DNA from: Crocosphaera subtropica ATCC 51142
Lineage (GTDB): Bacteria; Cyanobacteriota; Cyanobacteriia; Cyanobacteriales; Microcystaceae
Reading direction: 5' to 3'
Assembly: GCF_000017845.1 (NCBI RefSeq)
Contig: NC_010546.1
Coordinates: 510,001 to 542,000 of the forward strand
DNA length: 32,000 nucleotides
In this document: positions 643 to 15,608 of the stretch, piece by piece
Layout: each line of letters opens with the position of its first letter
Numbering within the stretch: position 1 is the stretch's first letter
Program-made: the position numbers and the translations under genes
Notes under the pieces: generated by a model
What the model saw: the letters and a program-made list of their open reading frames with translations, nothing else
What the model was told of the DNA's origin: nothing
Database searches by the model: none

Positions 643-1392
643 ATGGTTAAAGTTAATAATGACATGATACAACAAGAGCTTTTTAAGCAATATAAAAAAG
701 AAATCGAGAGACTAAATTGCGAGTCGCCTAAAAGTTTGAATCTTTGGAATGCTATTTATTTTTTTATTCCATGGTACAGAAGCGTCCAACCTGGTGCTAA
801 TCCATTAGATGATGAAATTCCTTGGATTAGTTTTGCTGCTATTGCTTTTCTAAAAAAAAAGTTGAATAAAAAAATGCGAGTTTACGAATATGGTGTAGGG
901 GGGTCTACTATTTTTTTTGCCAAAAGAGTAAAAGAAGTCATTTCTTGTGAACATGATCCTCATTGGGGAAAAAAAGTTATTAAGCGTTTAAAAAAACTCA
1001 ACTATAAAAATTATAATATTGAAATTCGAGAACCGATTTTAAATTCTGAAGGACTAGATAGAAATCCATCAGATGTTAACTCTTATATTTCCAGTTCTCC
1101 TGATTTAAAAAATTACAGTTTTCAAGACTATGTTGAAAGCATAGAACAATATCCTGATGAATATTTTGATGTAGTTTTAATTGATGGAAGAGCTAGACCC
1201 TCTTGTCTGAAACACACCTTAAATAAGATTAAGAAAAATGGATATATTATTCTAGACAATGCGGAGAGACAAAATTATTCAGAGGCTTGCGCTATGGTAG
1301 ATAATAAAAATTATCCTAGATGGGATTTTTATAGTCCAGGACCTTATAATCTCTATTTTTGGAAAACTTGTATTTGGAAAAAGAGTAATTAA
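643..1392 (+). CDS. Class I SAM-dependent methyltransferase (polysaccharide O-methyltransferase-like)
   Basis: 249-aa ORF. Gly-rich SAM-binding strand 'VYEYGVGGSTIFFAK..EVISCEHD' and later 'DVVLIDGRAR...NGYIILDN'. The same layout recurs in the N-terminal domain of the 8054-11140 protein. Family-level call only. Confidence 0.6.
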   Translation: MVKVNNDMIQQELFKQYKKEIERLNCESPKSLNLWNAIYFFIPWYRSVQPGANPLDDEIPWISFAAIAFLKKKLNKKMRVYEYGVGGSTIFFAKRVKEVISCEHDPHWGKKVIKRLKKLNYKNYNIEIREPILNSEGLDRNPSDVNSYISSSPDLKNYSFQDYVESIEQYPDEYFDVVLIDGRARPSCLKHTLNKIKKNGYIILDNAERQNYSEACAMVDNKNYPRWDFYSPGPYNLYFWKTCIWKKSN

Positions 1393-1408: not shown

Positions 1409-3235
1409 ATGACAGCAAGTTATTATGATCGGTCATTTGCCTTAAATAATCTTGATTTAAAACTAAAAGAATACTTGGATTTTGGTCGTGGTTTTTTTAT
1501 AGAAGCAGGAGGCAATGATGGTATTGCACAATCGAATACGCTCTATTTTGAAAAACATTGGAAATGGAAAGGTATTTTAATTGAACCCATTCCTGAACTT
1601 GCTGAAAAATGTAAAATTAACCGACCTAATTGTATTGTTGAAAACTGTGCTTTAGTACCATTTGACTATGATAAATCTGATATTGATATGTATTATTGTA
1701 ATTTAGTATCAATGGTCAAAGGCGCGCAAAAAACAGAAGAAGCAGAATTACAACATATTCAAAGAGGGTGTGAAGTTCAACAAATCAAGTCTTATGAATT
1801 AAAAGTACCGGCTAGAACATTAACCTCTATTCTCGATCAGTATGGAGTTAAAAATATTGATTTATTATCTTTAGATGTAGAAGGATTTGAGTTAAATGCT
1901 CTAAAAGGTCTTGATTTTGAGCGTTATCAGCCTAATTTTTTATTGATTGAAGCACGTTTTCGGCAAGAAATTGATGATTTTTTAGCTCCTTTATATGAAC
2001 CGATTGCCAATCTATCTCATCATGATGTTTTGTACAAGTCAAAGAAAAAAATTAAAGAAGAAAATAATTTTCAACTATATACCCCTGTTGTTTTTATTAT
2101 TTTTAAGCGTCCTGATGTAACTCAAGCAGTCTTTAATAAAATTGCTCAAGCAAAACCACCAAAGTTATTAGTAATAGCAGATGGTCCTCGTTCTACTGAA
2201 GAAGCTCATCTCTGTGAAGAAACTCGTTCAATTATTAATCAAGTAGATTGGGAATGCGAAGTCTTAACTAATTATTCTGATAATAATTTAGGGTGTAAAA
2301 AGAGAGTGTCTAGTGGGCTAGATTGGGTTTTTTCTGAGGTAGAAGAAGCAATAATTTTAGAAGATGATTGTCTTCCTTCAATATCATTTTTTCAATTCTG
2401 TCAAACCCTTCTAAACTATTACAGAAATGATGAACGAATTTGGTTAATTAGTGGTAATAATTTTCAAGGGGGACAAATAAGAACTGATTATAGTTATTAT
2501 TTTTCAAGATATCCTCATAATTGGGGTTGGGCAACCTGGAGAAGAGCTTGGAAACATTTTGATCTAGAGATGAAATTTTGGACACAATGTAAGGAACTGA
2601 AACTTCTTGAAACAATTTTTGAAGATCCTTATGAACAAGACTACTGGTTAGATATTCTAGAAAAAACTCATAATAATTTAATTGATAGTTGGGCTTATAT
2701 CTGGGGGTACACTTGTTGGATCAACAATGGTTTAACCATACTTCCTGAAGTAAATTTAGTTTCTAATATAGGGTTTGGGGAAGATGCTACTCATACAAAA
2801 GATATTAATAATCCTTTGGCTAATATTTCAGTTAGTAATATTATAAATATTGAACATCCACCTTACTTATGTCGACATCTAGAAGCTGATGCTTATAGCT
2901 TTAATCATATTTTTGGAGGTCAACAAATGAAGCAATTAATTAAACAGCTACAAGAAGAACTGAATCAAGCACACAACACAATTCAGAAACTTAGTGAGGA
3001 AAATAGTCAAACTAAAACTCAGTTACAAAATAGACAAACTGAGCTAGAGCAAAATGATATTAAAATCAAACAAACCCAAAATCAACTAATATTAATTAAT
3101 AGTCAATTGCAACAAATGCAAACCCAACTACAACAAGCCCAAGCACAGATAATAGCAATGGAATCTAGTAAATTTTGGAAACTACGGACCCAATGGTTAA
3201 AACTCAAAAAAAAATTAAGGTTGTCTGTAAAATAG
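1409..3235 (+). CDS. Tri-partite enzyme: FkbM-type methyltransferase, then GnT-I-like GT-A glycosyltransferase, then coiled coil with SKFWKLR tail
   Basis: aa 1-205 carry FkbM motifs 'FIEAGGNDGIAQSN' and 'LLSLDVEGFELNALKG'. aa ~224-500 form a GT-A with 'VVFIIFKRPDVT..LLVIADGPRS' and an EDD metal motif (nt 2360-2368, 'ILEDDCLPSISFF'). aa ~505-583 are Q-rich heptad-like sequence. The terminal 25 aa are MESSKFWKLRTQWLKLKKKLRLSVK. Confidence 0.75.
   Translation: MTASYYDRSFALNNLDLKLKEYLDFGRGFFIEAGGNDGIAQSNTLYFEKHWKWKGILIEPIPELAEKCKINRPNCIVENCALVPFDYDKSDIDMYYCNLVSMVKGAQKTEEAELQHIQRGCEVQQIKSYELKVPARTLTSILDQYGVKNIDLLSLDVEGFELNALKGLDFERYQPNFLLIEARFRQEIDDFLAPLYEPIANLSHHDVLYKSKKKIKEENNFQLYTPVVFIIFKRPDVTQAVFNKIAQAKPPKLLVIADGPRSTEEAHLCEETRSIINQVDWECEVLTNYSDNNLGCKKRVSSGLDWVFSEVEEAIILEDDCLPSISFFQFCQTLLNYYRNDERIWLISGNNFQGGQIRTDYSYYFSRYPHNWGWATWRRAWKHFDLEMKFWTQCKELKLLETIFEDPYEQDYWLDILEKTHNNLIDSWAYIWGYTCWINNGLTILPEVNLVSNIGFGEDATHTKDINNPLANISVSNIINIEHPPYLCRHLEADAYSFNHIFGGQQMKQLIKQLQEELNQAHNTIQKLSEENSQTKTQLQNRQTELEQNDIKIKQTQNQLILINSQLQQMQTQLQQAQAQIIAMESSKFWKLRTQWLKLKKKLRLSVK
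3158..3232 (+). repeat. Copy 1 of the conserved SKFWKLR basic amphipathic tail (C-terminal)
   Basis: Encodes MESSKFWKLRTQWLKLKKKLRLSVK. DNA core agtaaattttggaaactacgg at 3167-3187. Confidence 0.9.
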
Positions 3236-3353
3236 ACTTCATAGGCCTAACTTTGAATTCAATTCGATTAAAATCTTAAATACTTTATGAATTAATTACT
3301 TTAATATTTAACTATATTCGTTCAAAATTCTATGCAATGAGGAGTTCCAAAAA

Positions 3354-4331
3354 ATGACAAATCATTTTGAAAAATTACAACAAGAAATTGATCAACAAAC
3401 GGAAATTATTCAACAAGCTGAAAACGTTATTCTTGAATTACAAGACAAGTTACTGTTAGCTCAAGAATTAATTAGTGCAAGGGAAACGAGTAAATTCTGG
3501 AAACTGCGACAGAAGTGGTTTCACTTCAAAAAGAAATTGGGATTAGTTCAAGATGAACAACAAATCAATTGGCGTGAACAACTTGCCCTACCATCCCCTC
3601 TTGAGTTACCCAAAATGGTTGTTAATATGCCAGAAGTATACTTTTCCTCTGAGAAATATGATTCTGCTCAAGAGTATATACAACCTGATCTTGACCCCTC
3701 TCCTGTAGATTTACATTTTCAATATCTTCAATCTCAAGTTAAACCGTTTACCTTAGTTGGCACTGAAAGGATGCAAAGCCTTTATAATTTATCTCAACGA
3801 ATTGAAATAGAAAAGATTCCTGGAGATGTGATTGAATGTGGTGTGTGTAATGGGGGAACTGCAGCAATTCTTGCTCACTTTGCTACTAGGTCATTCAATT
3901 ATAATCGTACAGTTTGGCTCTTTGATTCTTTTGCAGGAATGCCAAAAACGACCGAAGAAGATGAAGAAGAAGCTAAAAAATATATTGGCAAAGATGTGGG
4001 GGACTTCAACAACGTTTTAACTATTCTTAATCTTGTCAATAGTGATATGACTAAAGTCAAAATTATAGAAGGATGGTTTGAAAATACGTTTCCAAAAGTT
4101 CATATTCCAGAAATTGCTTTACTTAATATTGATGCTGATTGGTATGCTTCAGTTAAATTTTGTCTTGAGACTTTTTATGATTTTGTTGTTCCTGGTGGTT
4201 TTATTTCCTTTGATGATTACGGACATTGGCCAGGATGCCGTAAAGCAGTTGATGAGTTTTTTAAGGAACGACAGTTATCTTATAAGCTCCATGAGGTAGA
4301 TTATACAGCGCGATGGATTCAAAAAGTTTAA
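3354..4331 (+). CDS. TylF/MycF-family (macrocin-type) sugar O-methyltransferase with an N-terminal coiled coil and SKFWKLR module
   Basis: aa 1-64 are a coiled coil plus 'RETSKFWKLRQKWFHFKKKLGL'. The rest carries TylF-like motifs 'GDVIECGVCNGGTAAILA', 'LLNIDADWYASVKFCLE' and 'GGFISFDDYGHWPGCRKAVDEF'. GAGGAG Shine-Dalgarno-like sequence upstream of the ATG. Confidence 0.75.
   Translation: MTNHFEKLQQEIDQQTEIIQQAENVILELQDKLLLAQELISARETSKFWKLRQKWFHFKKKLGLVQDEQQINWREQLALPSPLELPKMVVNMPEVYFSSEKYDSAQEYIQPDLDPSPVDLHFQYLQSQVKPFTLVGTERMQSLYNLSQRIEIEKIPGDVIECGVCNGGTAAILAHFATRSFNYNRTVWLFDSFAGMPKTTEEDEEEAKKYIGKDVGDFNNVLTILNLVNSDMTKVKIIEGWFENTFPKVHIPEIALLNIDADWYASVKFCLETFYDFVVPGGFISFDDYGHWPGCRKAVDEFFKERQLSYKLHEVDYTARWIQKV
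3480..3545 (+). repeat. Copy 2 of the SKFWKLR tail, here placed near the N-terminus
   Basis: Encodes RETSKFWKLRQKWFHFKKKLGL. DNA core agtaaattctggaaactgcga at 3489-3509. Confidence 0.9.
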
Positions 4332-4391
4332 TACTATCTTACTTGCAACTAACAACAATTTAACAACTTAGAGGAACTATTAATTAAAATT

Positions 4392-5075
4392 ATGCCTACA
4401 ATAGATTGGCTCAAACAAGAGTTTGATTATGGATACGATAGTGGTGATGTTTTATCGTTAGTCCCTAACGAAACCAGAATACAAGAAGAAAAACGAATTG
4501 GAGGTTCATATAGAGAAGTTTTTCTCAAAGCTATTCTGCCTAATCTCAAGCCCGATTCAAAAGTCTTAGAGTTAGGCCCCGGAAAAGGTTCTTGGTCAAA
4601 AGCAATTTTGAACTATATTCCTGATGGAGAATTGCAAGTGCTTGACTTTCAAGATGTTAAGCCATGGCTCAAACCAGCAACTTATGGAAGAAGATTGACT
4701 TGTCATATAGTTGAAGATAATTCTTTCTCTAAGTTAGCAGATAACTATTTTGATTTTTTTTGGTCTTTTGGTGTTTTATGTCACAATAATGTGGAAAATA
4801 TTGCAGAAATTCTAAAAAACTCTCTACCAAAGCTTAAACCCGGTTCTCTTGCTATTCATCAGTATGCTGATTGGAATAAATTAGATACTTATGGCTGGGA
4901 AAAAGGAGGGGTTCCACTTTTCTTTCAACAACAGTCTGATGATCAGATATGGTGGCCTCGCAATAATCGAGCAACGATGGAATCGATTGCTCAACAAGCA
5001 GGATGGAGTGTTATTGTTGCTGACCTGGGACTACTTCAGCGAGATTCAATGATTGTTTTACGTCGTCTTGAATAA
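4392..5075 (+). CDS. Class I SAM-dependent methyltransferase
   Basis: 227-aa ORF. Motif I 'VLELGPGKGSWS', acidic strand 'LQVLDFQD', 'FDFFWSFGVLCH' and 'LKPGSLAIHQY'. Family-level call only. Confidence 0.55.
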   Translation: MPTIDWLKQEFDYGYDSGDVLSLVPNETRIQEEKRIGGSYREVFLKAILPNLKPDSKVLELGPGKGSWSKAILNYIPDGELQVLDFQDVKPWLKPATYGRRLTCHIVEDNSFSKLADNYFDFFWSFGVLCHNNVENIAEILKNSLPKLKPGSLAIHQYADWNKLDTYGWEKGGVPLFFQQQSDDQIWWPRNNRATMESIAQQAGWSVIVADLGLLQRDSMIVLRRLE

Positions 5076-5108
5076 ACTTTTTATCACTGTTACGAATGAA
5101 AGAATACT

Positions 5109-7733
5109 ATGAAATATCTTAATTTAGGCTGTGGTTCTCACTTTCATCCTGACTGGACAAATGTTGATTTTGTCTCTACCCAAGAAGGAATCATAGCCCA
5201 TGATTTACGGCAAGGAATTCCCTTTGAAGATGCTTCTTTTGATGTGGTGTATCACTCCCATGTTTTAGAACATTTTTCTCAACGAGAAGGGAAACGATTT
5301 TTAGAAGAGTGTCATCGGGTTTTACGTCCTTATGGTTTAATTCGGGTGGTTGTCCCTGACTTAGAACAAATTGCCAAACTATACCTCAAAGCTTTAGAAA
5401 AAGCGAGTCAAGGGTCATTAGAATGGGCTGCAAATTATCATTGGATTCTCCTAGAAATGTTTGATCAAGTTGCCCGTCATCAATCTGGGGGTGAAATGGC
5501 GGCCTATTTAGCTGATGAAACCATTCCTAATGAGTCTTTTGTTATCAAACGCATTGGTGCGGAAGGAGAAAATTTAATTAAGCTGTTACGTCCCCTAAAA
5601 AGTCAGTTACAGCCTCCTTTATCTTTTAATCCTGAAACTGATGATCTTGAAGAAACAGCCTTAAAAATTGGTAAATTTCGTCTTGGGGGAGAAGTTCATC
5701 AATGGATGTATGATCGTTATTCTTTGCAACGTCTTTTAACTAAAACAGGTTTTTCTGATTTTAAAGTATGTCAAGCCAATGAGTCGAACATCCCTGATTT
5801 TAAGCAATTTGGCTTAGATGTTCAACCAGATGGTCGAGTGCGTAAACCCGACTCTTTATTTGTAGAAGCGATTAAATCTCGTCCCAACCAATGGCAACAA
5901 GCTTATATTCCCACTATGGAAAATACACAAACCCTTAAAATCCTTCAATTAAATACCGTTGATATTGCTGGAGGAGCAGCAAGAGCGGCCTATCGCTTAC
6001 ACAAAGGACTCCAACAAGCTAAGCAACATTCTCTAATGTTAGTGAATAAAAAATATTCAACGGATGAAACGGTTTGTTTGGTGCAATCTTTACCTGATGC
6101 AGAAACCTCTCAACAAATAGGAGCAACTACATTACAAACCTTTTATATCAATGAAAATCGGACTAATATTTCTAATACCTTATTCAGTTTTCCCTATCCT
6201 GGTTGGGATGTCAGTCAAGTCGAAGAAGTCCAAGAAGCTGACATTATCCAATTACATTGGGTCGCTATGTTTCAATCTCCTCAAACTGTAAAACAGTTGA
6301 GTAGCTTAGGAAAGCCTATGGTTTGGACACTCCATGATATGTGGGCTTTTACAGGAGGGTGTCATTACGCAGCAGGATGTGAGGGTTATCAATCAAGTTG
6401 TGAAAATTGTCCCCAATTAAAAGAGGATACATTTGGTTTAGCGCAAGCCATTTTACAAGATAAATTAGATATTTTATCAGGTCTAAATCTGACTATTGTT
6501 ACTCCTAGTCATTGGTTAGCTGATTGTGTGCGTAAAAGTGCTTTATTTAAACATCAGCGTATTGAAGTCATTCCAAATGGTATTGAAACGGATATATTTA
6601 TTCCCATTCCTAAAGCAAAAGCCAAAGAAAGTTTAGGCATTAAACCCAATACCTTTACGTTACTCATTGGGGCAGATAACGGTAATGAAAAGCGTAAAGG
6701 ATTTGAGGAAATGTTAAAAGCTCTTTCAGTTTGTCTTGAAGATGAAAAATTTTCTCAGGCTGTGCAACAAGAACAAGTGAAATTATTATGTTTTGGATTA
6801 CCTAATGACGAACTTAATTCCCTTGATATTCCTGTTGTTTCATTAGGGCAAATTAATTCCGATGAAAAATTAGCAGAAGTGTATTCATCAGCTGATATTT
6901 TTGTCTTACCTTCTCTAGAAGATAATCTCCCCAATACTATGTTAGAGTCTATGAGTTGTGGCACACCAGTTATAGGTTTTGAAGTCGGTGGTTTGCCAGA
7001 TGTGGTTAAAGAAAATGTAACGGGTAATTTAGTCCCTTTGGAGAATTCGTCTGCTTTAGCACAGGTGATTTTAAGTTATTTTAGAAGTCCTCAAAAAGTA
7101 GAAGATATTGGTAAAAATTGTCGTCAACTGCTCGAAGAAAACTATTCTCTCTCAGTACAAGCACAAGCTTATTTAAAGCTGTATCAAGATTTATTAGCCC
7201 ATCAAACACCTTTAAGTTATGCTGATTCTAAACAACGGTTATCATCTGAAGCTTCTTTGTCGTCTTTAGATACAACCCTAGAAGGAATTTATGTACCGAT
7301 TGAAACAGAATTTAACTCTATTTCTGGATCTATCTTTGAGTCTGTTTTACGTTATGCTTTATCACAGAAATTAGCGGAAGCTCAAGACCAAGTTAAAAAC
7401 CTTTTAGTAGAAAAACATAATCATATTCAACTGATTGGAGAATTGCGTGAAGAAGTTAAAGAACTAACAGTACAATTACAACTAAGTCAAATTGAAAAAG
7501 AATCATTACAACAGATTATTGATCAAAGAGACTTAACCATAGAAGATATTAAAGAACAACTGCATCGTAGTGAAAACAATCGACTCGATTTGTTACAGAA
7601 AATTGATCAACTACAAGAAAATCTTAATATCAGTCAAGCCACTATTGAAGGAATGGAAAGTAGTAAGTTTTGGCAATTAAGGATGCGCTTGGTTGCTCTT
7701 AAACAATTCCTTAAATTGAAAAGAACAGATTAA
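5109..7733 (+). CDS. Fusion: class I (Methyltransf_11-like) methyltransferase, then GT4 (GT-B) glycosyltransferase, then ~95-aa coiled coil with SKFWQLR tail
   Basis: N-terminus 'YLNLGCGSHFHPDWTNVD' and 'FDVVYHSHVLEHF'. GT4 part 'LKILQLNTVDIAGGAARAAYRLHKGL', 'WTLHDMWAFTGGCHY' and the EX7E region 'EDNLPNTMLESMSCGTPVIGFEVGGLPDVV'. Coiled coil from nt ~7368. Tail MESSKFWQLRMRLVALKQFLKLKRTD. Confidence 0.8.
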   Translation: MKYLNLGCGSHFHPDWTNVDFVSTQEGIIAHDLRQGIPFEDASFDVVYHSHVLEHFSQREGKRFLEECHRVLRPYGLIRVVVPDLEQIAKLYLKALEKASQGSLEWAANYHWILLEMFDQVARHQSGGEMAAYLADETIPNESFVIKRIGAEGENLIKLLRPLKSQLQPPLSFNPETDDLEETALKIGKFRLGGEVHQWMYDRYSLQRLLTKTGFSDFKVCQANESNIPDFKQFGLDVQPDGRVRKPDSLFVEAIKSRPNQWQQAYIPTMENTQTLKILQLNTVDIAGGAARAAYRLHKGLQQAKQHSLMLVNKKYSTDETVCLVQSLPDAETSQQIGATTLQTFYINENRTNISNTLFSFPYPGWDVSQVEEVQEADIIQLHWVAMFQSPQTVKQLSSLGKPMVWTLHDMWAFTGGCHYAAGCEGYQSSCENCPQLKEDTFGLAQAILQDKLDILSGLNLTIVTPSHWLADCVRKSALFKHQRIEVIPNGIETDIFIPIPKAKAKESLGIKPNTFTLLIGADNGNEKRKGFEEMLKALSVCLEDEKFSQAVQQEQVKLLCFGLPNDELNSLDIPVVSLGQINSDEKLAEVYSSADIFVLPSLEDNLPNTMLESMSCGTPVIGFEVGGLPDVVKENVTGNLVPLENSSALAQVILSYFRSPQKVEDIGKNCRQLLEENYSLSVQAQAYLKLYQDLLAHQTPLSYADSKQRLSSEASLSSLDTTLEGIYVPIETEFNSISGSIFESVLRYALSQKLAEAQDQVKNLLVEKHNHIQLIGELREEVKELTVQLQLSQIEKESLQQIIDQRDLTIEDIKEQLHRSENNRLDLLQKIDQLQENLNISQATIEGMESSKFWQLRMRLVALKQFLKLKRTD
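7653..7730 (+). repeat. Copy 3 of the SKFW(K/Q)LR tail (C-terminal, most divergent copy)
   Basis: Encodes MESSKFWQLRMRLVALKQFLKLKRTD. DNA core agtaagttttggcaattaagg at 7662-7682. Confidence 0.85.
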
Positions 7734-7770
7734 TAAGAAATAAAACCCGTGTAACCGAGTTTTATCCTAA

Positions 7771-7974
7771 TGTCGTCAGAATACCACATCTTCTCAAAAA
7801 GTTGGGAAAGATAGAGAATGGACTTGCCCAGAATGCCATACACATCACGATAGGGACATAAACGCCTGTTGGAATTTGCTTCAATTCTCTGATTCAAAAA
7901 TACCGTTGGAAGAACGGAAATCTACGCCTAACCAAACTGTTGAAATGCAGTGCATCAAGAGCGTTAGTTCTTGA
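7771..7974 (+). pseudogene. Decayed 3' fragment of an IS200/IS605-family tnpB (OrfB, RuvC/Zn-finger C-terminus)
   Basis: My hand translation of this frame gives [39 protein letters not shown]...[11 protein letters not shown]. 'REWTCPxCxxxHDRDINAxxN' is the hallmark TnpB C-terminal zinc-finger/RuvC-III motif. Only ~67 codons remain, the first CxxC appears to be deleted, and a stop lies immediately upstream (7768-7770). Confidence 0.65.
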
Positions 7975-7984
7975 GGGTAGGAAG

Positions 7985-8011
7985 CCCCACTCTCAACGGA
8001 GTAGGGTGGGG
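7985..8011 (+). other. GC-rich hairpin just 3' of the tnpB remnant (IS right-end or omega-RNA-scaffold-like; possible bidirectional terminator)
   Basis: ccccactct (7985-7993) pairs with agggtgggg (8003-8011). This gives a 9-bp stem with one G-U pair and a 9-nt loop. It lies between convergent stops at 7733 (+) and 8054 (-). Confidence 0.45.
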
Positions 8012-8053
8012 TACTTCACTTCTATAGTCTAACCATGATTTTTAATGTTAGAG

Positions 8054-11000
8054 TCATACGTCATCAATGGGTAAACCTAACTTTTGTTTCACACTAAACC
8101 ATTTACCCCGTAATTTCCAGAATTTACTGGTTTTCATTGCTTCTATTTCAGTAGAAGCCACTTCTAATTGCTGTTGTAAACGAGTAATTTCGCCACTATA
8201 ATAAGTAGAATTTTGAGACTGTTGACGACATTCTTCTAATGCTTGTTGATACTGCTGAACTTGATGACGAATATTGGCTAATTCTTGTTGGGTTTGTTCA
8301 ACAAGATTGTTCGCTTGTTTAACTAAACTTTGTTGTTTTCTTAAGGCGTTCCAAATTGGTGGAGTTAGTTCTGTTTTCTCCTGTTTAATCTTATTTGCAG
8401 TTTTCAAGAAAACATCTGCCATAATATCTGCCATCTTTGACCAAGAAAATTGTTGAATTTGCTCAAATCCTGCCTTAATTAATTGTTGCCGAATCTCAGG
8501 ATTTTGCACTTTATAAAGGGCATCCATTAAGTCACATTCATTAGATTGTTCAACATATAAAGCAGCATCTCCTGCGACTTCAGGAATGGAAGAATGGCAA
8601 CTGGTAATCACAGGACAACCACAGGCCATTGCTTCTAAAATAGGTAAGCCAAATCCTTCATATTTAGATGTACAAATATAAACCAATGCACCTGAATAAG
8701 CTCTTTTTAATTCTTCATCTTCTAAGGGTAATACATGGGTAGTGACATCTTGAGAAAGCTGAACTAATTCGGGTTCTAATTCTGATTTTCCTCCCACACA
8801 CACAATAGAAAATTCTTTTTTATTAACCAGTTTTGAGAAGGTTCTAAATAAATAAATAGCATTTTTATAACTATTAACTCCCATTCTTTCCCCTACTAAC
8901 AGCACATAAGGTTTATCAATATTGTACTTCTGTTTAAAATTATCAATTTCTTGATCACTCGCTGGAGAAAAAACTGATTTCAGTCCACAATGAGCAACTG
9001 TTACGTTATCAGGTGAAATATGGGGAAAGAACTTGGTTAAATCATAGGCTGTATTTTCAGATATGGTAATGTAGCTAGAAGCGTGCATAATACCATAGTG
9101 TTTTTCTCGCCAACCAACATTATCTAAATCTACTCCCATCACCTCTGGAATCATATCATAGCCCATAAAAACTGATGGGGTAGATAGGGGTATGGTGTAA
9201 TAAGTTGAAATGAATAAATCGGCCCCCTTTTCATCACAAATTTCCTGGAGCATTCGAGAATCTACATCAGTTTGGGTATAGTCAAAAGCGGGAACAGGAC
9301 GATAGCGAATATTGGGAATTCTGGGGGCTGTTCCTGCACGATCTAAAACAATGATATGCTGATAAAATCCATTTTCTGACCAGCATTCTAATAAGCTTTT
9401 CCAAACTTGTGCAATACCAGAATTAGCAAATTGGAAGAAGACTCCATCAATAACAATTTGAGGAAATGGTTTTTTAAGACTCATCGTTTTTTCTTGAATT
9501 TCTTGAGAAGTTAGAAAATGCCATGTTTGATCATTTGTATTTCTTTGCATCAAAGGAACAATACCACAAATATCAGCCGGTTCAGCAATGGTATTGTCGC
9601 TTACCCATGATAAATAATCTTTGAGAAATACGGGAAAATCTGTTGCTTCTTGCAAATCTTTCCATTCTTGCAGAGCATTTTCATAACCATAATAGCTTTC
9701 TTTAAAGTCTAGTTGATCAGGAGTCACATAAGCAAAATGCTGAAAAAGTAACCCATATTTTTCAGTTTCTTTGTGTAAAAAGGGATTAATCTTTGCTACA
9801 TCTTGAATTTGACCATCGGGTTGAGAACGGACTAATCTTGGGGGTTCATGAGCTTCCCAACTATCTCCTGGTTGAAAACGCCACACTCTTAACCATTCTT
9901 GATGAGGATTTTGTGTGTAACAATAACGACTACTAATGATCAGTTTTTCTCCTACAAAATACCAGCACCAAAAATAAGCAGATGTTTTCTCAGGATGCTT
10001 ATTAAATAGTTCTTTTGCTTGAATAATTTGCTCCACTGTCCATAACTCATCGACATCAATTTGCCACAGAAGACAGTCTTCTTTAATATTAGTTAAAGGC
10101 GCATTAACCATTTCTCGTTTACCGTCCCAAAACTGCCCTTTTTGTTTGCGGTAAATGGTAATATTATCGGGATATTGCTGTTGTAAATTATCTAAATATT
10201 CCGTTGTTCCATCAACACTACATCCTTGATTATGAATCTTCTCTAAAATTTCTCCTCCTGCTGCTAAACTCCAAGCTGTATCATGTCTTAATTCTGCTAC
10301 TCCTTCAATAATATGCCAATGCCATTTAAAAGGAAGTTGTCGTAAAACATTAATATGATATTCAATGAAAGGCTGTCCATTTAAAACAATGGTAAAAAAG
10401 TGAATGGGTTGCTCCTCTAAGGGGGTGACTGGAGGTTGATAAATAGACAAAGAATCAACTCTGATAAAAATAGAATAACCATTACGAAGGGTAGGATTAT
10501 GCTGAATCAATTTATAGTTAGGATCAGATAATAAGCGATGATGACTTTGCCAATTTTTGTAAGTACAAATATCATCTAAAAGAATAATTTTTGCGCCGTA
10601 AACTTGATCTAATTCTACCGCTCCTGTAAACTCAGATCCATCAATTAATACCAGATCAAATTGTTGTATATTATTTTCTTGTTTGATGATTTCAATACCA
10701 TTTTCAGCCACTTCAGCATCTTTGACGTAATCAATATCTTGACGCAACCAACCTAAAACTCTATCTAGGGGATATTCATTCAAGGGTGTTTGATAAGAGT
10801 CATAAAATTGAGTAACCGTTGCTTCATCAGGAAATTGATTAATTGCAATGGAAGAGACATTATAACATTTAACAAATGAATCATTAAGATAATAATTTTT
10901 TAAAGCATTAAAACGAGTTTGAGAAACTTCCATACAAAATAAAGTAGGTTGGTTGGGATTTTCTCTTAACCCTTTAACAAAAGCTTCTGTACTTCCTTGT

Positions 11001-11140
11001 CCTGAAGACGAACCTATTTCTAACACAGTTTTAATGTGACTATAACGAGCAATTTCTTGAATCGCTTGATAAAAATCGTCATTTTTGATTTCAGGATCAA
11101 TAATAAAATTAAGTTCTGATTTTGTTGTGTTAGTTGTCAT
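8054..11140 (-). CDS. Four-part giant enzyme: class I methyltransferase, then GT-A-like domain, then GT4 (GT-B) glycosyltransferase, then coiled coil with SKFWKLR tail
   Basis: N-terminus 'VLEIGSSSGQGSTEAF' and 'DLVLIDGSEFTG'. The middle has 'FFTIVLNGQPFIEYHINVL' and a DxD-like 'QIDVDELW'. GT4 part 'IVIDGVFFQFANSGIAQVWKSLLE' and 'SKYEGFGLPILEAMACGCPVITSCHSSIPEVAGDAALYV'. ~70-aa Q-rich coil. Tail MKTSKFWKLRGKWFSVKQKLGLPIDDV. Confidence 0.8.
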   Translation of the reverse strand: MTTNTTKSELNFIIDPEIKNDDFYQAIQEIARYSHIKTVLEIGSSSGQGSTEAFVKGLRENPNQPTLFCMEVSQTRFNALKNYYLNDSFVKCYNVSSIAINQFPDEATVTQFYDSYQTPLNEYPLDRVLGWLRQDIDYVKDAEVAENGIEIIKQENNIQQFDLVLIDGSEFTGAVELDQVYGAKIILLDDICTYKNWQSHHRLLSDPNYKLIQHNPTLRNGYSIFIRVDSLSIYQPPVTPLEEQPIHFFTIVLNGQPFIEYHINVLRQLPFKWHWHIIEGVAELRHDTAWSLAAGGEILEKIHNQGCSVDGTTEYLDNLQQQYPDNITIYRKQKGQFWDGKREMVNAPLTNIKEDCLLWQIDVDELWTVEQIIQAKELFNKHPEKTSAYFWCWYFVGEKLIISSRYCYTQNPHQEWLRVWRFQPGDSWEAHEPPRLVRSQPDGQIQDVAKINPFLHKETEKYGLLFQHFAYVTPDQLDFKESYYGYENALQEWKDLQEATDFPVFLKDYLSWVSDNTIAEPADICGIVPLMQRNTNDQTWHFLTSQEIQEKTMSLKKPFPQIVIDGVFFQFANSGIAQVWKSLLECWSENGFYQHIIVLDRAGTAPRIPNIRYRPVPAFDYTQTDVDSRMLQEICDEKGADLFISTYYTIPLSTPSVFMGYDMIPEVMGVDLDNVGWREKHYGIMHASSYITISENTAYDLTKFFPHISPDNVTVAHCGLKSVFSPASDQEIDNFKQKYNIDKPYVLLVGERMGVNSYKNAIYLFRTFSKLVNKKEFSIVCVGGKSELEPELVQLSQDVTTHVLPLEDEELKRAYSGALVYICTSKYEGFGLPILEAMACGCPVITSCHSSIPEVAGDAALYVEQSNECDLMDALYKVQNPEIRQQLIKAGFEQIQQFSWSKMADIMADVFLKTANKIKQEKTELTPPIWNALRKQQSLVKQANNLVEQTQQELANIRHQVQQYQQALEECRQQSQNSTYYSGEITRLQQQLEVASTEIEAMKTSKFWKLRGKWFSVKQKLGLPIDDV
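8057..8137 (-). repeat. Copy 4 of the SKFWKLR tail (C-terminal)
   Basis: Encodes MKTSKFWKLRGKWFSVKQKLGLPIDDV on the minus strand. The SKFWKLR codons are at 8108-8128 (plus-strand ccgtaatttccagaatttact). Confidence 0.9.
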
Positions 11141-11180
11141 AATTGTAGTTACCTAAATAATGATTAAAAGATTGGAGAAT

Positions 11181-12068
11181 TTAAGATATAGATTTTTTTA
11201 ATTGTTCCTGTAATTTGTGATTTTCTTTTTCTAGGGTTTGATATTTTTCTTCTAACATTGAATACTGCTCTTGAAAATAATCTCTACTTTCTTCAGTAGC
11301 AGCTAACCATTCCCTTAAATTAATCACAAACTCTTGATATTTCAAAATCCTTCGTTTCATCCAGTAGGGAGTTTGATACAGGGGATGTTGATTTTGAATA
11401 CGATAAGATTCAGGAACAGAAATTTTAATTTGACTAGATAATCCCCCTAAATAGTAAGAACTAATTAATCTAGGATAATAACTTAATTTAACGGTTTCAT
11501 GACTAGCTAATCTTAAAAACCATTCGTAGTCTGATGATATTTGATAATTCTCATTAAAAAATCCCACCTTCGAGAAAAAAAGGTCAGCCTTAGAAAAACT
11601 TGCTTGATGAGGAAGACAACCACAAACTAATTCATCAAGAACCTTTTCTGGAGGAGGGGGATTAACATTAATTAAACGCCCCGAAGGATAACGAACTTCT
11701 AAATCTCCATAAATAAATTCAGAAGAAGGATGTTCTATTATATAGTTGGCCACATCAGAAATGACACGATTATCAACAAAATAATCATCAGCATTAATAA
11801 AGCAGAGAAAGTCTCCAGTTGAATACCTGATTGCCTTATTCATTGCTGAATAAATACCCTCATCAGGTTCACTAATAAACTTAGCAATTTTTCCTAGATA
11901 TTTTTCAATGATTGAGATTGTGTTATCTTGAGAATCACCATCAATAATAATATATTCAAGGTTAGAATAATCTTGATTCACAACACTCTGTATTACTTTC
12001 TCTATGAAGTTCTCAGCATTCCTACAAACAGTAATGACTGAGATTCTTATTTTGTTTGAGTTAAGCAT
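11181..12068 (-). CDS. GT2-family (GT-A) glycosyltransferase with a short C-terminal coiled coil and no SKFWKLR tail
   Basis: 'ISVITVCRNAENFIEKVIQSVVNQDYSNLEYIIIDGDSQDNT' and the 'FINADDYF' DxD region. C-terminus 'EQYSMLEEKYQTLEKENHKLQEQLKKSIS'. Lies 40 nt upstream of the 8054-11140 gene on the same strand, so probably co-transcribed. Confidence 0.8.
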   Translation of the reverse strand: MLNSNKIRISVITVCRNAENFIEKVIQSVVNQDYSNLEYIIIDGDSQDNTISIIEKYLGKIAKFISEPDEGIYSAMNKAIRYSTGDFLCFINADDYFVDNRVISDVANYIIEHPSSEFIYGDLEVRYPSGRLINVNPPPPEKVLDELVCGCLPHQASFSKADLFFSKVGFFNENYQISSDYEWFLRLASHETVKLSYYPRLISSYYLGGLSSQIKISVPESYRIQNQHPLYQTPYWMKRRILKYQEFVINLREWLAATEESRDYFQEQYSMLEEKYQTLEKENHKLQEQLKKSIS

Positions 12069-12310
12069 TGCTCCAAGGTTAGTTTAGCTTTGTCATATCA
12101 TGTTCAGATGAATGAATATTTGTCAACTGTAAATGTTGGTTTGTTCTACAAGCTTGAAGCCATTAAGTATTGGCCCGCCCTAGCTTTCAGTAATAACAAA
12201 GAGAAGGGAACTTATTGGTTAGCTCCTACCTCATTAAGATAAAAAAGACTGACTTTCTTAATAAATGTTTCATCAGTTATGTAAAGTTAGGATATGCTAT
12301 TGGGAGTTAA
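12069..12310. promoter_or_regulatory. Divergent intergenic region that presumably carries promoters for the minus-strand pair and the long plus-strand operon
   Basis: 242-bp AT-rich non-coding gap between divergently oriented start codons. No confidently assignable -35/-10 pair. The call rests on gene geometry only. Confidence 0.3.
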
Positions 12311-13285
12311 ATGATTGTGAGGAGTGTTTTCATGGATTGTAGCTCAATCATCAAACAGATAGAAGATGATCGCAACATCTGTGCTGGAGATGATCCTAGA
12401 CGGTTAGAACATTTTGGCTTTAAAGTATATTCTCAATCTGATGAAGATGGGATCATAGAAGAAATTTTTAATCGAATCGGTATTAAATCAAAGATTTTTG
12501 TTGATTTTGGTGCCGAAAGAGGAGAAGAGAATAATAGTCGCTATCTTTTAGAAAAAGGATGGACTGGTTTATGGATAGAAGCGTCCCCAGATTATGCACA
12601 ATACCTTCGTTCTCTTCATGAGGAAGCGATTAGGGAAGGTCGGTTAAAGTTTATTGAAGCTGCAGTTACCGCAGAAAATATTAATGAGTTAATGAGTCGG
12701 GCTGGTATTACAGGAGAAATTGATTTTCTTTCAGTGGATATCGATGGTAATGATTATCATGTTTATGATGCTATTTCGGTGATACAACCAAGGGTGGTTT
12801 GTTTAGAGCATAATCACTGTTACCCACCACCGAAAGAATGGGTTATGCCTTACGATCCTAACCATCGTTGGACAGCAGGGTCTAGTTATTATGGTGCTTC
12901 CATTGCTTCCTTTGAAAAGCTGGCCCGAAGTAAAGGCATGATCTTAGTGGGTTGCGGTTTATATTCCCCGAATGGATTTTATGTACGAGAAGATTTAGTT
13001 AATGATAATTTTTCTGGACCATTTAATTGTGAAAGATTTTTTAACCGATTAGATTATGAGAAAATTGTTAGTTTTCCTCGTAAAGAATTGAAACAAACCG
13101 AAGAAATTGAAGTCCCTCAAACCCAAGAAATAACAGAAGAAGATTATAAAACGAAGTGGATAGAAGCTGAAAAGCAACTTAAGGAAGCACAAGAAGAAAT
13201 CGAAGCGATGAAAACCAGTAAATTCTGGAAGTTGAGATCGCTTTGGTTTAAGTTTAAGAAAAATTTAGGTTTATCTACTCAATAA
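12311..13285 (+). CDS. FkbM-like methyltransferase with a short coiled coil and SKFWKLR tail
   Basis: 'FVDFGAERGEENNS' and 'FLSVDIDGNDYHVYDA' resemble the two FkbM signature strands, but are divergent. Tail MKTSKFWKLRSLWFKFKKNLGLSTQ. An alternative in-frame start at 12332 (MDCSS) has a better-spaced GAGGAG at 12319-12324. Confidence 0.65.
   Translation: MIVRSVFMDCSSIIKQIEDDRNICAGDDPRRLEHFGFKVYSQSDEDGIIEEIFNRIGIKSKIFVDFGAERGEENNSRYLLEKGWTGLWIEASPDYAQYLRSLHEEAIREGRLKFIEAAVTAENINELMSRAGITGEIDFLSVDIDGNDYHVYDAISVIQPRVVCLEHNHCYPPPKEWVMPYDPNHRWTAGSSYYGASIASFEKLARSKGMILVGCGLYSPNGFYVREDLVNDNFSGPFNCERFFNRLDYEKIVSFPRKELKQTEEIEVPQTQEITEEDYKTKWIEAEKQLKEAQEEIEAMKTSKFWKLRSLWFKFKKNLGLSTQ
13208..13282 (+). 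repeat. Copy 5 of the SKFWKLR tail (C-terminal)
   Basis: Encodes MKTSKFWKLRSLWFKFKKNLGLSTQ. DNA core agtaaattctggaagttgaga at 13217-13237. Confidence 0.9.
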
Positions 13286-13357: not shown

Positions 13358-14797
13358 ATGAAATCTACAACAGCTAAACAAAAAAATAATCACAAGACAA
13401 ATCAAAATTATCTTTTTCCTCCTGAAATTTGGAGAAAAAGGAACCTATTATACTATCAAGATATAGAAAGATTCTATCGATTTTATGTTAACTCTAATTC
13501 TAAGGTTTTAGAAGTAGGTTCAGGAACGGGTTATTTATTAGCCTCTGTCAATCCTGAGTATGGCTTAGGAATTGATATTAATGAGCAAGCCATAGAATAT
13601 GCAAGATATCGCTTTCCTGATTTAGATTTTATCTTGGAAGATGGGGAACATTATAATTCTAATCAAAAATTTGATTATATTCTTTTCGCTAATACCGTTA
13701 GTTATCTTCATGACCTACATAAAACCTTTAGCAATTTAGCTAGTTGTTGTCATCCTAACACTCGTTTAATTTTAACTTTTCATAATCCGGCTTGGGAAAT
13801 TATTCTAAGACTAGCCACTTTATTGAAACAAAGGACACCAATTGATAACTTAAATTGGTTAAGTTATGAAGATATTAGAAATATTCTTAATTTGAATGGA
13901 TTTGAAGTTATCTGTCATCATAAACAAATGCTACTACCGAGGCGTATTTTTGGCTTATCTTGGCTATTAAATAAAATAATTGCGCCCCTTCCTTTGATTA
14001 ATCAACTATGTTTAACCGAATCCATTATTGCTAGACCAAAAATTAATCAAACTGATACAGTCAAGCAACATCAAACCTTAACTTGTTCTGTCATTATTCC
14101 TGCCCGTAATGAAGCTGGAAATATTGAAAGTTGTGTCACCCGAATGCCTCCTTTGGGAAAACACACGGAAATTATTTTTATTGAAGGTCATTCAAAAGAC
14201 AATACTTGGGAAGAAATTCAAAGAGTACAAGCAAAATATGGTCATCAATGGGACATCAAAATTTGTCAGCAAACCGGTAAAGGGAAAGGGGATGCGGTAC
14301 GTCAAGGGTTTGCGATGGCAACAGGGGACATTTTGATGATTTTGGACTCTGATTTAACCGTTAGACCCGAAGATTTAACCCATTTCTTTGATGCCTTGGC
14401 TTCAGGTGCTTGTGAATTTGCTAATGGTTGTCGTTTAGTGTATCCAGTTCATCCTCAAGCCATGCCTTGGTTGAATCGCATGGCCAACCGATTTTTTGCT
14501 TGGTTACTCTCCTATTTACTAGGCATAAAAATCAAAGACTCTCTTTGTGGAACTAAAGTATTATTTCGTCATCATTATCAACAGATTGCGGAAAACCGTT
14601 CCTACTTTGGAGATTTTGACCCCTTTGGGGATTTTGACTTATTATTCGGTGCAGCAAAACTGGGTTTACAGATGAAAGATGTGCCAGTTAGATATGACCC
14701 CAGAACCTATGGTTCGTCTAATATTCAACATTTTAAGGAGGGAATCGTTCTTTTAAAAATGTGTTTATTTGCAGCGAAAAAGATAAAATTCCGTTAA
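13358..14797 (+). CDS. Bifunctional class I SAM-methyltransferase / GT2 glycosyltransferase (polyprenyl-phosphate sugar synthase-like, DPM1/GtrB/ArnC type)
   Basis: N-terminus 'VLEVGSGTGYLLA' and 'FDYILFANTVSYL'. C-terminal half 'CSVIIPARNEAGNIESCV', 'GKGDAVRQGF' and 'ILDSDLTVRPED'. The polyprenyl-phosphate acceptor is inferred from motif style and the neighbouring GT-C genes. Confidence 0.7.
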   Translation: MKSTTAKQKNNHKTNQNYLFPPEIWRKRNLLYYQDIERFYRFYVNSNSKVLEVGSGTGYLLASVNPEYGLGIDINEQAIEYARYRFPDLDFILEDGEHYNSNQKFDYILFANTVSYLHDLHKTFSNLASCCHPNTRLILTFHNPAWEIILRLATLLKQRTPIDNLNWLSYEDIRNILNLNGFEVICHHKQMLLPRRIFGLSWLLNKIIAPLPLINQLCLTESIIARPKINQTDTVKQHQTLTCSVIIPARNEAGNIESCVTRMPPLGKHTEIIFIEGHSKDNTWEEIQRVQAKYGHQWDIKICQQTGKGKGDAVRQGFAMATGDILMILDSDLTVRPEDLTHFFDALASGACEFANGCRLVYPVHPQAMPWLNRMANRFFAWLLSYLLGIKIKDSLCGTKVLFRHHYQQIAENRSYFGDFDPFGDFDLLFGAAKLGLQMKDVPVRYDPRTYGSSNIQHFKEGIVLLKMCLFAAKKIKFR

Positions 14798-14805
14798 CTA
14801 TTAGC

Positions 14806-15605: not shown

Positions 15606-15608
15606 ACC

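What the first reader, a model, noticed from the sequence alone, without database searches (positions are those of the whole stretch)
2921..13285. Five unrelated glycan-modifying enzymes share a coiled coil plus 'SKFWKLR' basic amphipathic tail, a candidate shared tethering/assembly tag
Directly visible in the translations. The aligned tails are: IIAMESSKFWKLRTQWLKLKKKLRLSVK* (1409-3235) | ISARETSKFWKLRQKWFHFKKKLGLVQDE.. (3354-4331) | IEGMESSKFWQLRMRLVALKQFLKLKRTD* (5109-7733) | IEAMKTSKFWKLRGKWFSVKQKLGLPIDDV* (8054-11140, minus strand) | IEAMKTSKFWKLRSLWFKFKKNLGLSTQ* (12311-13285). The consensus is [ST]-S-K-F-W-[KQ]-L-R-x-x-[WL]-[FLV]-x-[FLV]-K-[KQ]-x-L-x-L. It is always immediately preceded by a Gln/Glu-rich heptad-like segment. 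The catalytic parts differ completely: FkbM+GT-A, TylF, MT+GT4, MT+GT-A+GT4 and FkbM-like. The module therefore behaves as an autonomous add-on. Even the DNA core agtaaattctggaa is nearly identical in three copies. None of these five enzymes has an obvious transmembrane segment. The tail alternates Trp/Phe/Leu with Lys/Arg, as in-plane membrane-targeting helices do (MinD/FtsA-type, or the membrane-binding C-terminus of E. coli O9a WbdD). My inference is that the tail anchors soluble methyl- and glycosyltransferases on the cytoplasmic face of the membrane. The coiled coils would then zip them into a homo- or hetero-oligomeric assembly line. I do not know of a named domain family for this tag and cannot search for one here.
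Basis: partly seen in the sequence, partly recalled or inferred. Interest (0 to 1): 0.85.

Follow-up and report, generated by a model that had tools for sequence, protein, structure and literature searches.

The report
Shared coiled-coil foot tag on cyanobacterial glycan enzymes
Five unrelated sugar-modifying enzymes in this cyanobacterial gene cluster carry the same short, highly conserved helix after a coiled coil; the motif is widespread in cyanobacteria, absent from Pfam and NCBIfam, and most likely docks these soluble enzymes at the membrane where a surface polysaccharide is built.

Summary
Exactly five copies of [ST]-S-K-F-W-[KQ]-L-R-x2-[WL] occur in the window. Each scores 54-65 bits against a tag HMM; the next best segment scores 7 bits. 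Each abuts the only heptad-like segment of its protein. Four copies are C-terminal and one (3354-4331) is N-proximal.

The module is not covered by Pfam, NCBIfam or PDB sequences, and the motif strings were not found in the searchable literature. It is nevertheless common:
- 907 cluster representatives out of 1.84 billion proteins match it.
- At least 540 genome sites match; the best 80 are all cyanobacterial.

It is fused to GT2, GT4, class-I and FkbM methyltransferases, sulfotransferases and radical-SAM enzymes. It clusters at up to 7 copies per 20 kb. In 48 of 80 related loci it lies within 10 kb of wzm/wzt ABC exporter genes, often in the order wzt > MT-tag > GT2-tag, which mirrors E. coli wzm-wzt-wbdD-wbdA.

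AlphaFold2 predicts a long helix, a break at the conserved [ST]-S, then a 15-16-residue basic/aromatic helix.

My best reading is a WbdD-like "stalk and foot" module for membrane tethering and assembly. Direct lipid binding is inferred, not shown: the hydrophobic moment is unremarkable, and the extreme sequence conservation hints at a specific partner. I rate it a new variant of a known kind, of moderate to high interest.

The parts
1409..3235 (+). Enzyme A (608 aa): FkbM methyltransferase, a weak GNT-I/GT-A-like middle domain, a coiled coil and a C-terminal tag
   Evidence: Pfam FkbM at residues 33-187. Weak GNT-I hit E=0.006 and POMGnT1 hit E=0.02. Tag HMM 61.7 bits.
2912..3148 (+). Coiled-coil stalk of A (about residues 502-580)
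   Evidence: Heptad scan gives 502-590. NCBIfam shows only coiled-coil-type chance hits at 505-587.
3149..3232 (+). Tag of A: IIAMESSKFWKLRTQWLKLKKKLRLSVK
3354..4331 (+). Enzyme B (325 aa): N-terminal coiled coil, tag, linker and TylF O-methyltransferase
   Evidence: Pfam TylF at residues 132-324. Tag HMM 60.7 bits.
3471..3545 (+). Tag of B, which is N-proximal and not a tail: ISARETSKFWKLRQKWFHFKKKLGL. It is preceded by a heptad segment at residues 1-38 (3354-3467).
5109..7733 (+). Enzyme C (874 aa): class-I methyltransferase, GT4, a long coiled coil and a C-terminal tag
   Evidence: Pfam Methyltransf_11 and Glycos_transf_1/Glyco_transf_4. Tag HMM 53.9 bits.
7644..7730 (+). Tag of C, the most divergent copy (the W/F of the second turn is replaced by L/V): IEGMESSKFWQLRMRLVALKQFLKLKRTD. 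The upstream proline-free helical stretch spans about 7317-7643.
8054..11140 (-). Enzyme D (1028 aa): unassigned N-terminal 240 aa, a weak GT2-like domain, GT4, a coiled coil and a C-terminal tag
   Evidence: Pfam GT4 at residues 574-892. Weak GT2 hit E=0.022. Tag HMM 65.2 bits.
8147..8362 (-). Coiled-coil stalk of D (residues about 927-998 of a predicted single helix spanning 927-1003)
   Evidence: AlphaFold2 model of the last 106 aa: helix 5-81, pLDDT 94.7. Heptad scan 937-1006.
8057..8146 (-). Tag of D: IEAMKTSKFWKLRGKWFSVKQKLGLPIDDV. Predicted break at T-S, then helix K..L, ending at G-L-P.
12311..13285 (+). Enzyme E (324 aa): FkbM-like class-I methyltransferase fold, a short coiled coil and a C-terminal tag
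   Evidence: Pfam FkbM 25.5 bits. AlphaFold2 pLDDT 93. Foldseek top hits are SAM-dependent methyltransferases.
13136..13198 (+). Stalk helix of E (the part of predicted helix 276-302 that lies upstream of the tag)
13199..13282 (+). Tag of E: IEAMKTSKFWKLRSLWFKFKKNLGLSTQ. Predicted helix break at S303, then helix 304-318.

Best explanation
The coiled coil plus tag is a portable 'stalk-and-foot' module of cyanobacterial glycan assembly. It is the functional counterpart of the C-terminal region of E. coli WbdD.

Proposed mechanism:
- The heptad segment oligomerises into a stalk.
- The conserved E-[ST]-S makes a hinge.
- The following 15-16-residue helix (K-F-W-K-L-R-x2-W-F-K-[LVF]-K-[RK]-x-L, capped by G-L-P) is a strongly basic (+5 to +7), Trp/Phe-rich foot.
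- Because several enzymes of one cluster share the foot, they would be concentrated on the same surface. Their different stalk lengths (about 27 to about 110 residues in this window) would hold catalytic domains at different distances from it.

Shown here: the motif, its modularity, its spread, its gene-cluster context and the predicted helix-break-helix.

Inferred: membrane contact, oligomerisation and any ruler role.
For: Anatomy:
- Five copies, each abutting a heptad segment, with no transmembrane segments.
- AlphaFold2 predicts helix - break at the invariant Ser - terminal helix in two independent models, with pLDDT 85-95 across the tag.

Spread and placement:
- 907 representative proteins match at E<=1e-3. 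Most matches end at the C-terminus, with a median of 16 residues after the Arg.
- In the 80 related loci there are 135 C-terminal, 25 internal and 8 N-proximal copies.
- Fusion partners are glycan enzymes of many families.
- Up to 7 tags occur per 20 kb, and 55 of 80 loci hold 2 or more.

Genomic context:
- Wzt (ABC_tran+Wzt_C) and Wzm are the commonest untagged neighbours, present in 48 of 80 loci.
- In 30 of 41 cases the gene after wzt is tagged. The order wzt > MT-tag > GT2-tag occurs 14 times, mirroring E. coli O8 wzm-wzt-wbdD-wbdA.

Convergent tails: homologs of E's catalytic domain that lack the tag usually end in other short basic/aromatic tails, such as PSLWQRLRRRLSA and PWWRRLFGG. The median net charge of their last 20 aa is +4, and 69% reach +3 or more against 5.8% of background windows.

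Against: - No direct evidence of lipid binding.
- The hydrophobic moment of the foot is moderate (0.15-0.42 on the Fauchere-Pliska scale) and not above shuffled controls (p about 0.18, and 0.78 for C).
- The invariant R and K lie in the centre of the aromatic face, not at its edges.
- Near-invariance of residue identities across 280 unique tags is unusual for generic membrane-targeting helices.
- The tag's own hydrophobic positions follow an a-d-a-d-a heptad pattern, so it could also be a continuation of the coiled coil.
- This window and its Crocosphaera relatives hold no wzm/wzt in the sequence available.
- B has the stalk at the N-terminus with nothing at its distal end, which does not fit a pure ruler.
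Confidence: 0.6

Rival explanations
1. The tag is primarily a specific protein-protein docking peptide. All tagged enzymes would bind one common receptor (for example a membrane protein of the export or polymerisation machinery) or bind each other's tags, building a multi-enzyme complex. Membrane proximity would then be indirect. This overlaps with the best explanation and could be true together with it.
For: - Extreme conservation of residue identity: S 99%, K 98%, F 97%, W 100%, R 99%, W 98%, K 90% across 280 unique tags, and in contigs from 30% to 68% GC.
- One conserved face and one variable face on the helix: conservation moment 0.22 against 0.12 in shuffles, p about 0.056.
- Fixed length to the C-terminus.
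- Multiple tags per locus, and tandem tags within single proteins.
- WbdD's membrane-proximal region is itself a polymerase recruitment site (PMC11231755).
Against: - No single untagged neighbour family is universal. Wzt or Wzm occurs in 48 of 80 loci and in none of the Crocosphaera-type loci.
- Related enzymes in other bacteria use non-homologous basic tails at the same position, which argues for a generic surface rather than a specific receptor.
- No multimer modelling was possible.
Confidence: 0.25
2. The tag is only a structural end-piece of the coiled coil, such as a trigger, capping or register-setting sequence that fixes oligomeric state. It would have no targeting role.
For: - The tag's hydrophobic positions are F2, L5, W9, [LVF]12 and L16, a canonical 3-4-3-4 heptad spacing.
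- The tag always follows a heptad segment.
- Internal copies occur between domains.
Against: - AlphaFold2 places a helix break at [ST]-S, and the register shifts by one residue there.
- The e and g positions are basic with no acidic partners, which disfavours homomeric packing.
- Additional aromatic residues at the b positions would be solvent-exposed.
- Tag-less homologs replace it with basic tails joined by Pro-rich linkers and no coiled coil.
Confidence: 0.08
3. The likeness is a chance, low-complexity or recent-duplication artefact, or the tag is a secretion/sorting signal.
For: The short AT-rich DNA core is identical in three copies.
Against: - 0 matches in 300 shuffles, and an HMM score gap of 54-65 bits against 7 bits.
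- Synonymous sites have diverged.
- There are hundreds of independent occurrences.
- The host enzymes need cytoplasmic SAM and nucleotide sugars. They have no signal peptide and no transmembrane segment.
Confidence: 0.02

Closest known systems
C-terminal region of E. coli O8/O9a (Klebsiella O3/O5) WbdD: coiled-coil molecular ruler, membrane-associated amphipathic helix and WbdA recruitment site
   Same: - Shared architecture: catalytic (methyltransferase) domain, extended coiled coil, then a basic/hydrophobic membrane-proximal end.
- The gene lies directly after wzm-wzt and before a glycosyltransferase in many related loci.
- Wzt carries the Wzt_C carbohydrate-binding domain.
- E. coli O8 WbdD has NSRSWRITQPLRWLSLQRQL immediately after its coiled coil. 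hhalign aligns the tag to exactly this stretch (S-K/R-x-W-K/R-L/I ... W-L-x-L).
   Different: - The tag HMM does not detect WbdD, and hhalign probability is only 4.8% (P=0.0084).
- WbdD continues for about 100 more residues, whereas the tag is about 24 residues and usually ends the protein.
- The catalytic domains share only generic class-I methyltransferase similarity (27% over 113 aa).
- Here the module sits on many enzymes per cluster (GT2, GT4, FkbM, TylF, sulfotransferase), not only on the terminator. It also occurs N-proximally and internally.
- This window lacks wzm/wzt.
WbbB (Klebsiella O12) and ORF6 (O7) single-polypeptide terminator - coiled coil - polymerase proteins
   Same: Internal tags sit between a coiled coil and downstream GT2 modules, for example in L019 (tag at residue 515 of 2112) and L028. 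This corresponds to terminator - ruler - membrane-proximal polymerase architectures (PMC11231755).
   Different: No sequence relation was tested. No conserved junction motif is reported for these proteins in the papers read.
MinD/FtsA/MreB-type membrane-targeting amphipathic helices
   Same: A short terminal helix, rich in Lys/Arg and large hydrophobic residues, on otherwise soluble proteins.
   Different: In those helices the pattern is conserved but the residue identities are not (from general knowledge). The tag is nearly invariant, its hydrophobic moment is unremarkable, and it is always coupled to a coiled coil.
Docking domains of modular PKS/NRPS or dockerin-type assembly tags
   Same: A short, portable, conserved terminal module shared by several enzymes of one biosynthetic cluster.
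   Different: No cognate partner module has been identified. There is no evidence of pairwise specificity.

Membership tests
WbdD-type coiled-coil terminator/scaffold of ABC-transporter-dependent glycan assembly | Catalytic terminating domain (methyltransferase, with or without kinase) at the end of the coiled coil distal from the membrane | tested here: met
   A, C and E have a methyltransferase domain N-terminal to the stalk. The commonest tagged family in related loci is MT+CC+tag of about 429 aa, found in 35 loci. B, and tagged proteins that carry only glycosyltransferase domains, do not fit this feature.
WbdD-type coiled-coil terminator/scaffold of ABC-transporter-dependent glycan assembly | Extended coiled coil | tested here: met
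   Heptad scan. AlphaFold2 predicts single long helices of 27 and 77 residues. Oligomeric state was not tested.
WbdD-type coiled-coil terminator/scaffold of ABC-transporter-dependent glycan assembly | C-terminal membrane-associated amphipathic helix | tested here: inconclusive
   A terminal helix is predicted, with net charge +5 to +7 and rich in W/F/L. Its hydrophobic moment is not above shuffles.
WbdD-type coiled-coil terminator/scaffold of ABC-transporter-dependent glycan assembly | Genetic linkage to wzm/wzt, with the Wzt C-terminal carbohydrate-binding domain | tested here: inconclusive
   Met in 48 of 80 related loci, and 30 of 41 genes directly downstream of wzt are tagged. Not met within this 32-kb window or in its Crocosphaera relatives.
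WbdD-type coiled-coil terminator/scaffold of ABC-transporter-dependent glycan assembly | Sequence homology to the WbdD post-coiled-coil region | tested here: inconclusive
   The tag HMM gives no hit on E. coli O8 WbdD. hhalign aligns the tag to the junction motif, but with probability 4.8% and P=0.0084.
WbdD-type coiled-coil terminator/scaffold of ABC-transporter-dependent glycan assembly | Recruits the polymerase; coiled-coil length sets glycan chain length | not testable with these tools
   Requires interaction assays and stalk-length mutants.
Generic C-terminal membrane-targeting sequence (MinD/FtsA type) | Short terminal helix with a clear hydrophobic moment and a conserved pattern but variable residues | tested here: not met
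   Hydrophobic moment 0.15-0.42, p about 0.18-0.78 against shuffles. Residue identities are 90-100% conserved.
Any catalogued protein family or domain (Pfam-A, NCBIfam, PDB sequences) | A curated model or solved chain covering the tag | tested here: not met
   No model covers the tag in the full-length proteins or in the isolated tails. The PDB profile search finds only a chance 14-residue match at E=1.3. The motif strings are absent from the searchable literature. InterPro member databases other than Pfam and NCBIfam were not available.

The most novel reading that the evidence does not exclude
The tag is a cyanobacteria-specific address label. Cyanobacteria have two cytoplasm-facing membrane systems, plasma membrane and thylakoid, so a generic basic amphipathic tail would not discriminate between them. 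On this reading the near-invariant S-K-F-W-K-L-R-x2-W-F-x2-K foot binds a dedicated plasma-membrane receptor or lipid. It thereby assembles a heteromeric, height-graded enzyme 'assembly line' for surface-glycan synthesis. The tag DNA may also serve as a recombination point for shuffling enzyme cassettes.
Probability: 0.15. Interest if true: 0.8.

Novelty: new variant of a known kind. Interest (0 to 1): 0.6.

Why it matters
Little is known about how cyanobacteria assemble O-antigen or exopolysaccharide, even though these glycans control grazing, phage susceptibility, adhesion and biotechnological EPS yield.

What a sequence-defined tag for the membrane-proximal end of the machinery would give:
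1. A one-line search handle for finding glycan assembly enzymes, including ones with unrecognised catalytic domains.
2. A testable candidate for peripheral targeting to the plasma membrane rather than the thylakoid.
3. An extension of the WbdD 'molecular ruler' idea from a single terminator to whole sets of enzymes with different stalk lengths.
4. A portable module for tethering engineered enzymes.

A Pfam-style family could be built from the alignments made here.

Tried and rejected
- Word-indexed protein searches with short queries (tag profile; WbdD C-terminus) returned only short fragments. They were of little use for judging architecture, so the exhaustive HMM search was used instead.
- The PDB profile search found nothing.
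- Literature searches for the motif strings found nothing relevant. The search for the WbdD-type string 'SWRIT' was swamped by the word 'miswritten'.
- The supplement of PMC11231755 has no SKFW string.
- Hydrophobic-moment analysis did not separate the tag from shuffled sequences, so I do not use it as support.
- Recent gene conversion among the five copies is rejected, because synonymous sites have diverged.
- Presence outside cyanobacteria:
  - The three loci not labelled cyanobacterial (L004, L024, L051) are 75-97% identical in protein to cyanobacterial loci, so they are mis-binned or unlabelled.
  - Only one of 72,556 plasmids holds the tag, and it is from Nostoc.
  - A 68%-GC contig with two tags plus wzm/wzt (L081) could not be assigned to a phylum.
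- The tag HMM found nothing in the E. coli O8 locus.


Full report
1. OBSERVATION

The window carries a large glycan-biosynthesis cluster from a relative of Crocosphaera. It is 77-91% identical in nucleotides to loci of a Crocosphaera sp. MAG and of C. chwakensis CCY0110, and its GC content is 34%.

A six-frame regex scan finds exactly five copies of [ST][ST]KFW[KQ]LR and no others. An HMM built from 20 tags scores the five at 54-65 bits, while the next best six-frame segment scores 7 bits. The strict regex never occurs in 300 shuffles of the window.

Each copy abuts the only heptad-like segment of its protein. None of the five proteins has a segment hydrophobic enough for a transmembrane helix; the highest 19-residue Kyte-Doolittle mean is 1.45.

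- The copy in ORF 3354-4331 is N-proximal. The order is coiled coil, tag, linker, TylF domain. It is not a tail.
- The 'GT-A' assignments in A and D rest only on sub-threshold hits.
- The N-terminal 240 residues of D have no family hit.

The identical 14-nt DNA core in three copies is real. However, synonymous sites differ among the copies, so the similarity is maintained at the protein level and does not come from recent duplication or conversion.

2. WHAT THE MODULE IS

From 280 unique instances the consensus is L-x2-A-Q-x-R-I-x-A-M-E-[ST]-S-K-F-W-K-L-R-x2-W-F-K-[LVF]-K-[RK]-x-L-G-L-P-x-[DEN]. S, K, F, W, R, W and K are 90-100% conserved. Several of these columns were partly fixed by the selection pattern used to collect the instances.

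The upstream heptad register has a = L-13 and I-6, and d = M-3. The tag's own 3-4-3-4 pattern is F2, L5, W9, [LVF]12, L16. These two registers are offset by one residue at E-[ST]-S.

AlphaFold2 places a helix break exactly there in two models:
- Enzyme E, built with a 65-sequence alignment: mean pLDDT 93, helix 276-302, break at S303, helix 304-318.
- The last 106 residues of D: pLDDT 94.7, helix 5-81, break at T82-S83, helix 84-99.

The terminal helix ends at the conserved G-L-P. The module is therefore a long helix, a hinge, and a 15-16-residue basic/aromatic helix.

3. HOW COMMON IT IS AND WHAT ACCOMPANIES IT

No Pfam-A or NCBIfam model covers the tag, in the full-length proteins or in the isolated tails. 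No PDB sequence matches it. The motif strings do not occur in the searchable literature.

An exhaustive HMM search of 1.84 billion cluster representatives finds 907 proteins at E<=1e-3 and 180 at E<=1e-10. Most matches end at the C-terminus, with a median of 16 residues after the Arg.

The 78 long representatives carry these domains:
- GT2 in 22
- class-I methyltransferases in 14
- GT4 in 12
- FkbM in 5
- sulfotransferase in 4
- radical SAM in 2

A scan of one genome per species gave at least 600 pattern matches, of which 540 were confirmed. The best 80 loci are cyanobacteria of many orders. The three loci not labelled as such are 75-97% identical in protein to cyanobacterial loci. Only one of 72,556 plasmids holds the tag, and it is from Nostoc. 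A 68%-GC contig of unknown phylum also has two tags, and 13% of the long representatives are Arg-rich. Restriction to cyanobacteria is therefore likely but not proven.

4. MODULARITY

- The catalytic domain of E has 1,643 homologs. Only 6 of the best 120 carry the tag.
- The Crocosphaera ortholog of C is 68% identical over the enzyme, but its stalk is 50 residues shorter and its tag is of the D/E subtype. An 86-nt stretch of that tag is 88% identical to the tail of E in the window.
- In the 80 related loci there are 135 C-terminal, 25 internal (domain - coiled coil - tag - domain) and 8 N-proximal copies. Some proteins have two tags in tandem.

5. GENOMIC CONTEXT

Tags are strongly clustered. 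55 of 80 loci have 2 or more within 20 kb, with a maximum of 7. In 50 of 53 multi-tag loci all tagged genes lie on one strand.

Clustering the ORFs of the loci shows that the commonest untagged neighbours are Wzt (ABC_tran + Wzt_C), Wzm (ABC2_membrane) and GDP-mannose dehydratase. 48 of 80 loci hold wzt or wzm within 10 kb. In 30 of 41 cases the gene after wzt is tagged, and 14 loci show the order wzt > MT-stalk-tag > GT2-stalk-tag. This mirrors the E. coli O8 locus wzm-wzt-wbdD-wbdA, which I fetched for comparison.

The window itself and its Crocosphaera relatives hold no wzm/wzt in the sequence available. Instead the window holds three polytopic membrane proteins, one of them PMT_2/GT-C-like. 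The export route of this particular glycan is therefore undetermined.

6. MECHANISM

[quoted passage not shown] The cyanobacterial module has the same layout and, in many genomes, the same gene neighbourhood.

An independent argument for surface tethering comes from E's enzyme family. Homologs without the tag mostly end in other short basic/aromatic tails. The median net charge of their last 20 residues is +4, and 69% reach +3 or more against 5.8% of background windows. This looks like a convergent solution at the same position.

I therefore favour a stalk-and-foot tether and assembly module (confidence 0.6).

Caveats:
- The foot's hydrophobic moment is not better than shuffles.
- The invariant Arg and Lys lie in the middle of the aromatic face.
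- Residue identities are far more conserved than in generic membrane-targeting helices.

These points keep a specific docking function as a live rival or an additional role (0.25), whether to a common receptor or between tags. A purely structural coiled-coil cap (0.08) fits the heptad spacing. It does not fit the predicted hinge, the basic e/g positions, or the coiled-coil-free basic tails of homologs.

7. RELATION TO KNOWN FAMILIES

E. coli O8 WbdD has NSRSWRITQPLRWLSLQRQL directly after its coiled coil. hhalign aligns the tag precisely to this stretch, but with only 4.8% probability and P=0.0084. The tag HMM does not detect WbdD. The catalytic domains share only generic class-I methyltransferase similarity. 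Homology is thus unproven; the resemblance is architectural and positional.

I file the module as a new variant of a known kind. It is a WbdD-like membrane-proximal module, here sequence-defined, short, portable, and shared by many enzymes per cluster.

8. VERDICT

The feature is real, widespread, and absent from Pfam, NCBIfam, PDB sequences and the searchable literature. Interest 0.6.

Noticed in passing
window 11181-12068 (-): A sixth enzyme, a GT2 of 295 aa, ends in a heptad-like segment (residues 259-295, ...LEEKYQTLEKENHKLQEQLKKSIS) but has no tag. It could pair with the stalks of tagged neighbours.
   Followed up: partly
L005 13945-16416 versus window 5109-7733 and 13192-13277: The Crocosphaera MAG ortholog of enzyme C has a stalk 50 aa shorter and a tag of the D/E subtype. 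Its tag DNA is 88% identical over 86 nt to the tail of E in the window. This suggests stalk+tag modules are exchanged between genes, and that tag DNA may act as a recombination point. That locus also lacks the window's D and E and the genes at 13358-19193.
   Followed up: partly
L082 43456-44733 (-) (E. coli IAI1, O8 WbdD): Immediately after its coiled coil, WbdD(O8) has NSRSWRITQPLRWLSLQRQLLRQ. This resembles the tag (S-K/R-x-W-K/R-L/I ... W-L-x-L) with a 2-residue insertion. Some proteobacterial homologs of E end in a related ...PLRSALRSTRRLL.
   Followed up: partly
P0017, P0020, P0024, P0030, P0042 (representative proteins): Some proteins carry two stalk+tag units in tandem. An example is P0017: ...IEAMKTSKFWKLRTKWFKLKRSLGL-(24 aa)-...IEAMKTSKFWQLRTQWFKLKKFVGLKTD.
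   Followed up: no
window 643-1392, 1409-3235, 3354-4331, 4392-5075, 5109-7733, 12311-13285, 13358-14797, 14877-15605, 15609-16463, 16476-17291, 26058-27218: The cluster has an unusual density of methyltransferase domains. Eleven ORFs have FkbM, TylF or class-I methyltransferase hits; the hits for 643-1392 are below Pfam's cut-off. This implies a heavily methylated glycan.
   Followed up: partly
window 17304-19193, 27257-29083, 29146-30705: There are three large polytopic membrane proteins. Two have no Pfam or NCBIfam match. The third is PMT_2/STT3-like (GT-C). No wzm/wzt, wzx or wzy was recognised in the window, so the export and polymerisation route is unknown.
   Followed up: partly
L081 9129-10183 (68% GC metagenome contig): A 60-aa 'protein' consisting only of stalk+tag starts 3 nt after a 289-aa GT4 ORF in another frame. 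This is probably a split gene. The same locus has a second tagged GT2, plus wzm, wzt and a methyltransferase. Many of the short database hits may likewise be gene fragments.
   Followed up: partly
window 26058-26061 and 30672-30705: The start of ORF 26058-27218 overlaps the stop of 23050-26061 by 4 nt, an ATGA-type coupling. The convergent ORFs 29146-30705 (+) and 30672-31556 (-) overlap by 34 nt at their 3' ends.
   Followed up: no
window 21-569: This is the C-terminal part of homoserine kinase ThrB (TIGR00191, E=1e-50). It marks the upstream border of the glycan cluster, and the same junction is present in C. chwakensis (L017 8170-8739).
   Followed up: yes
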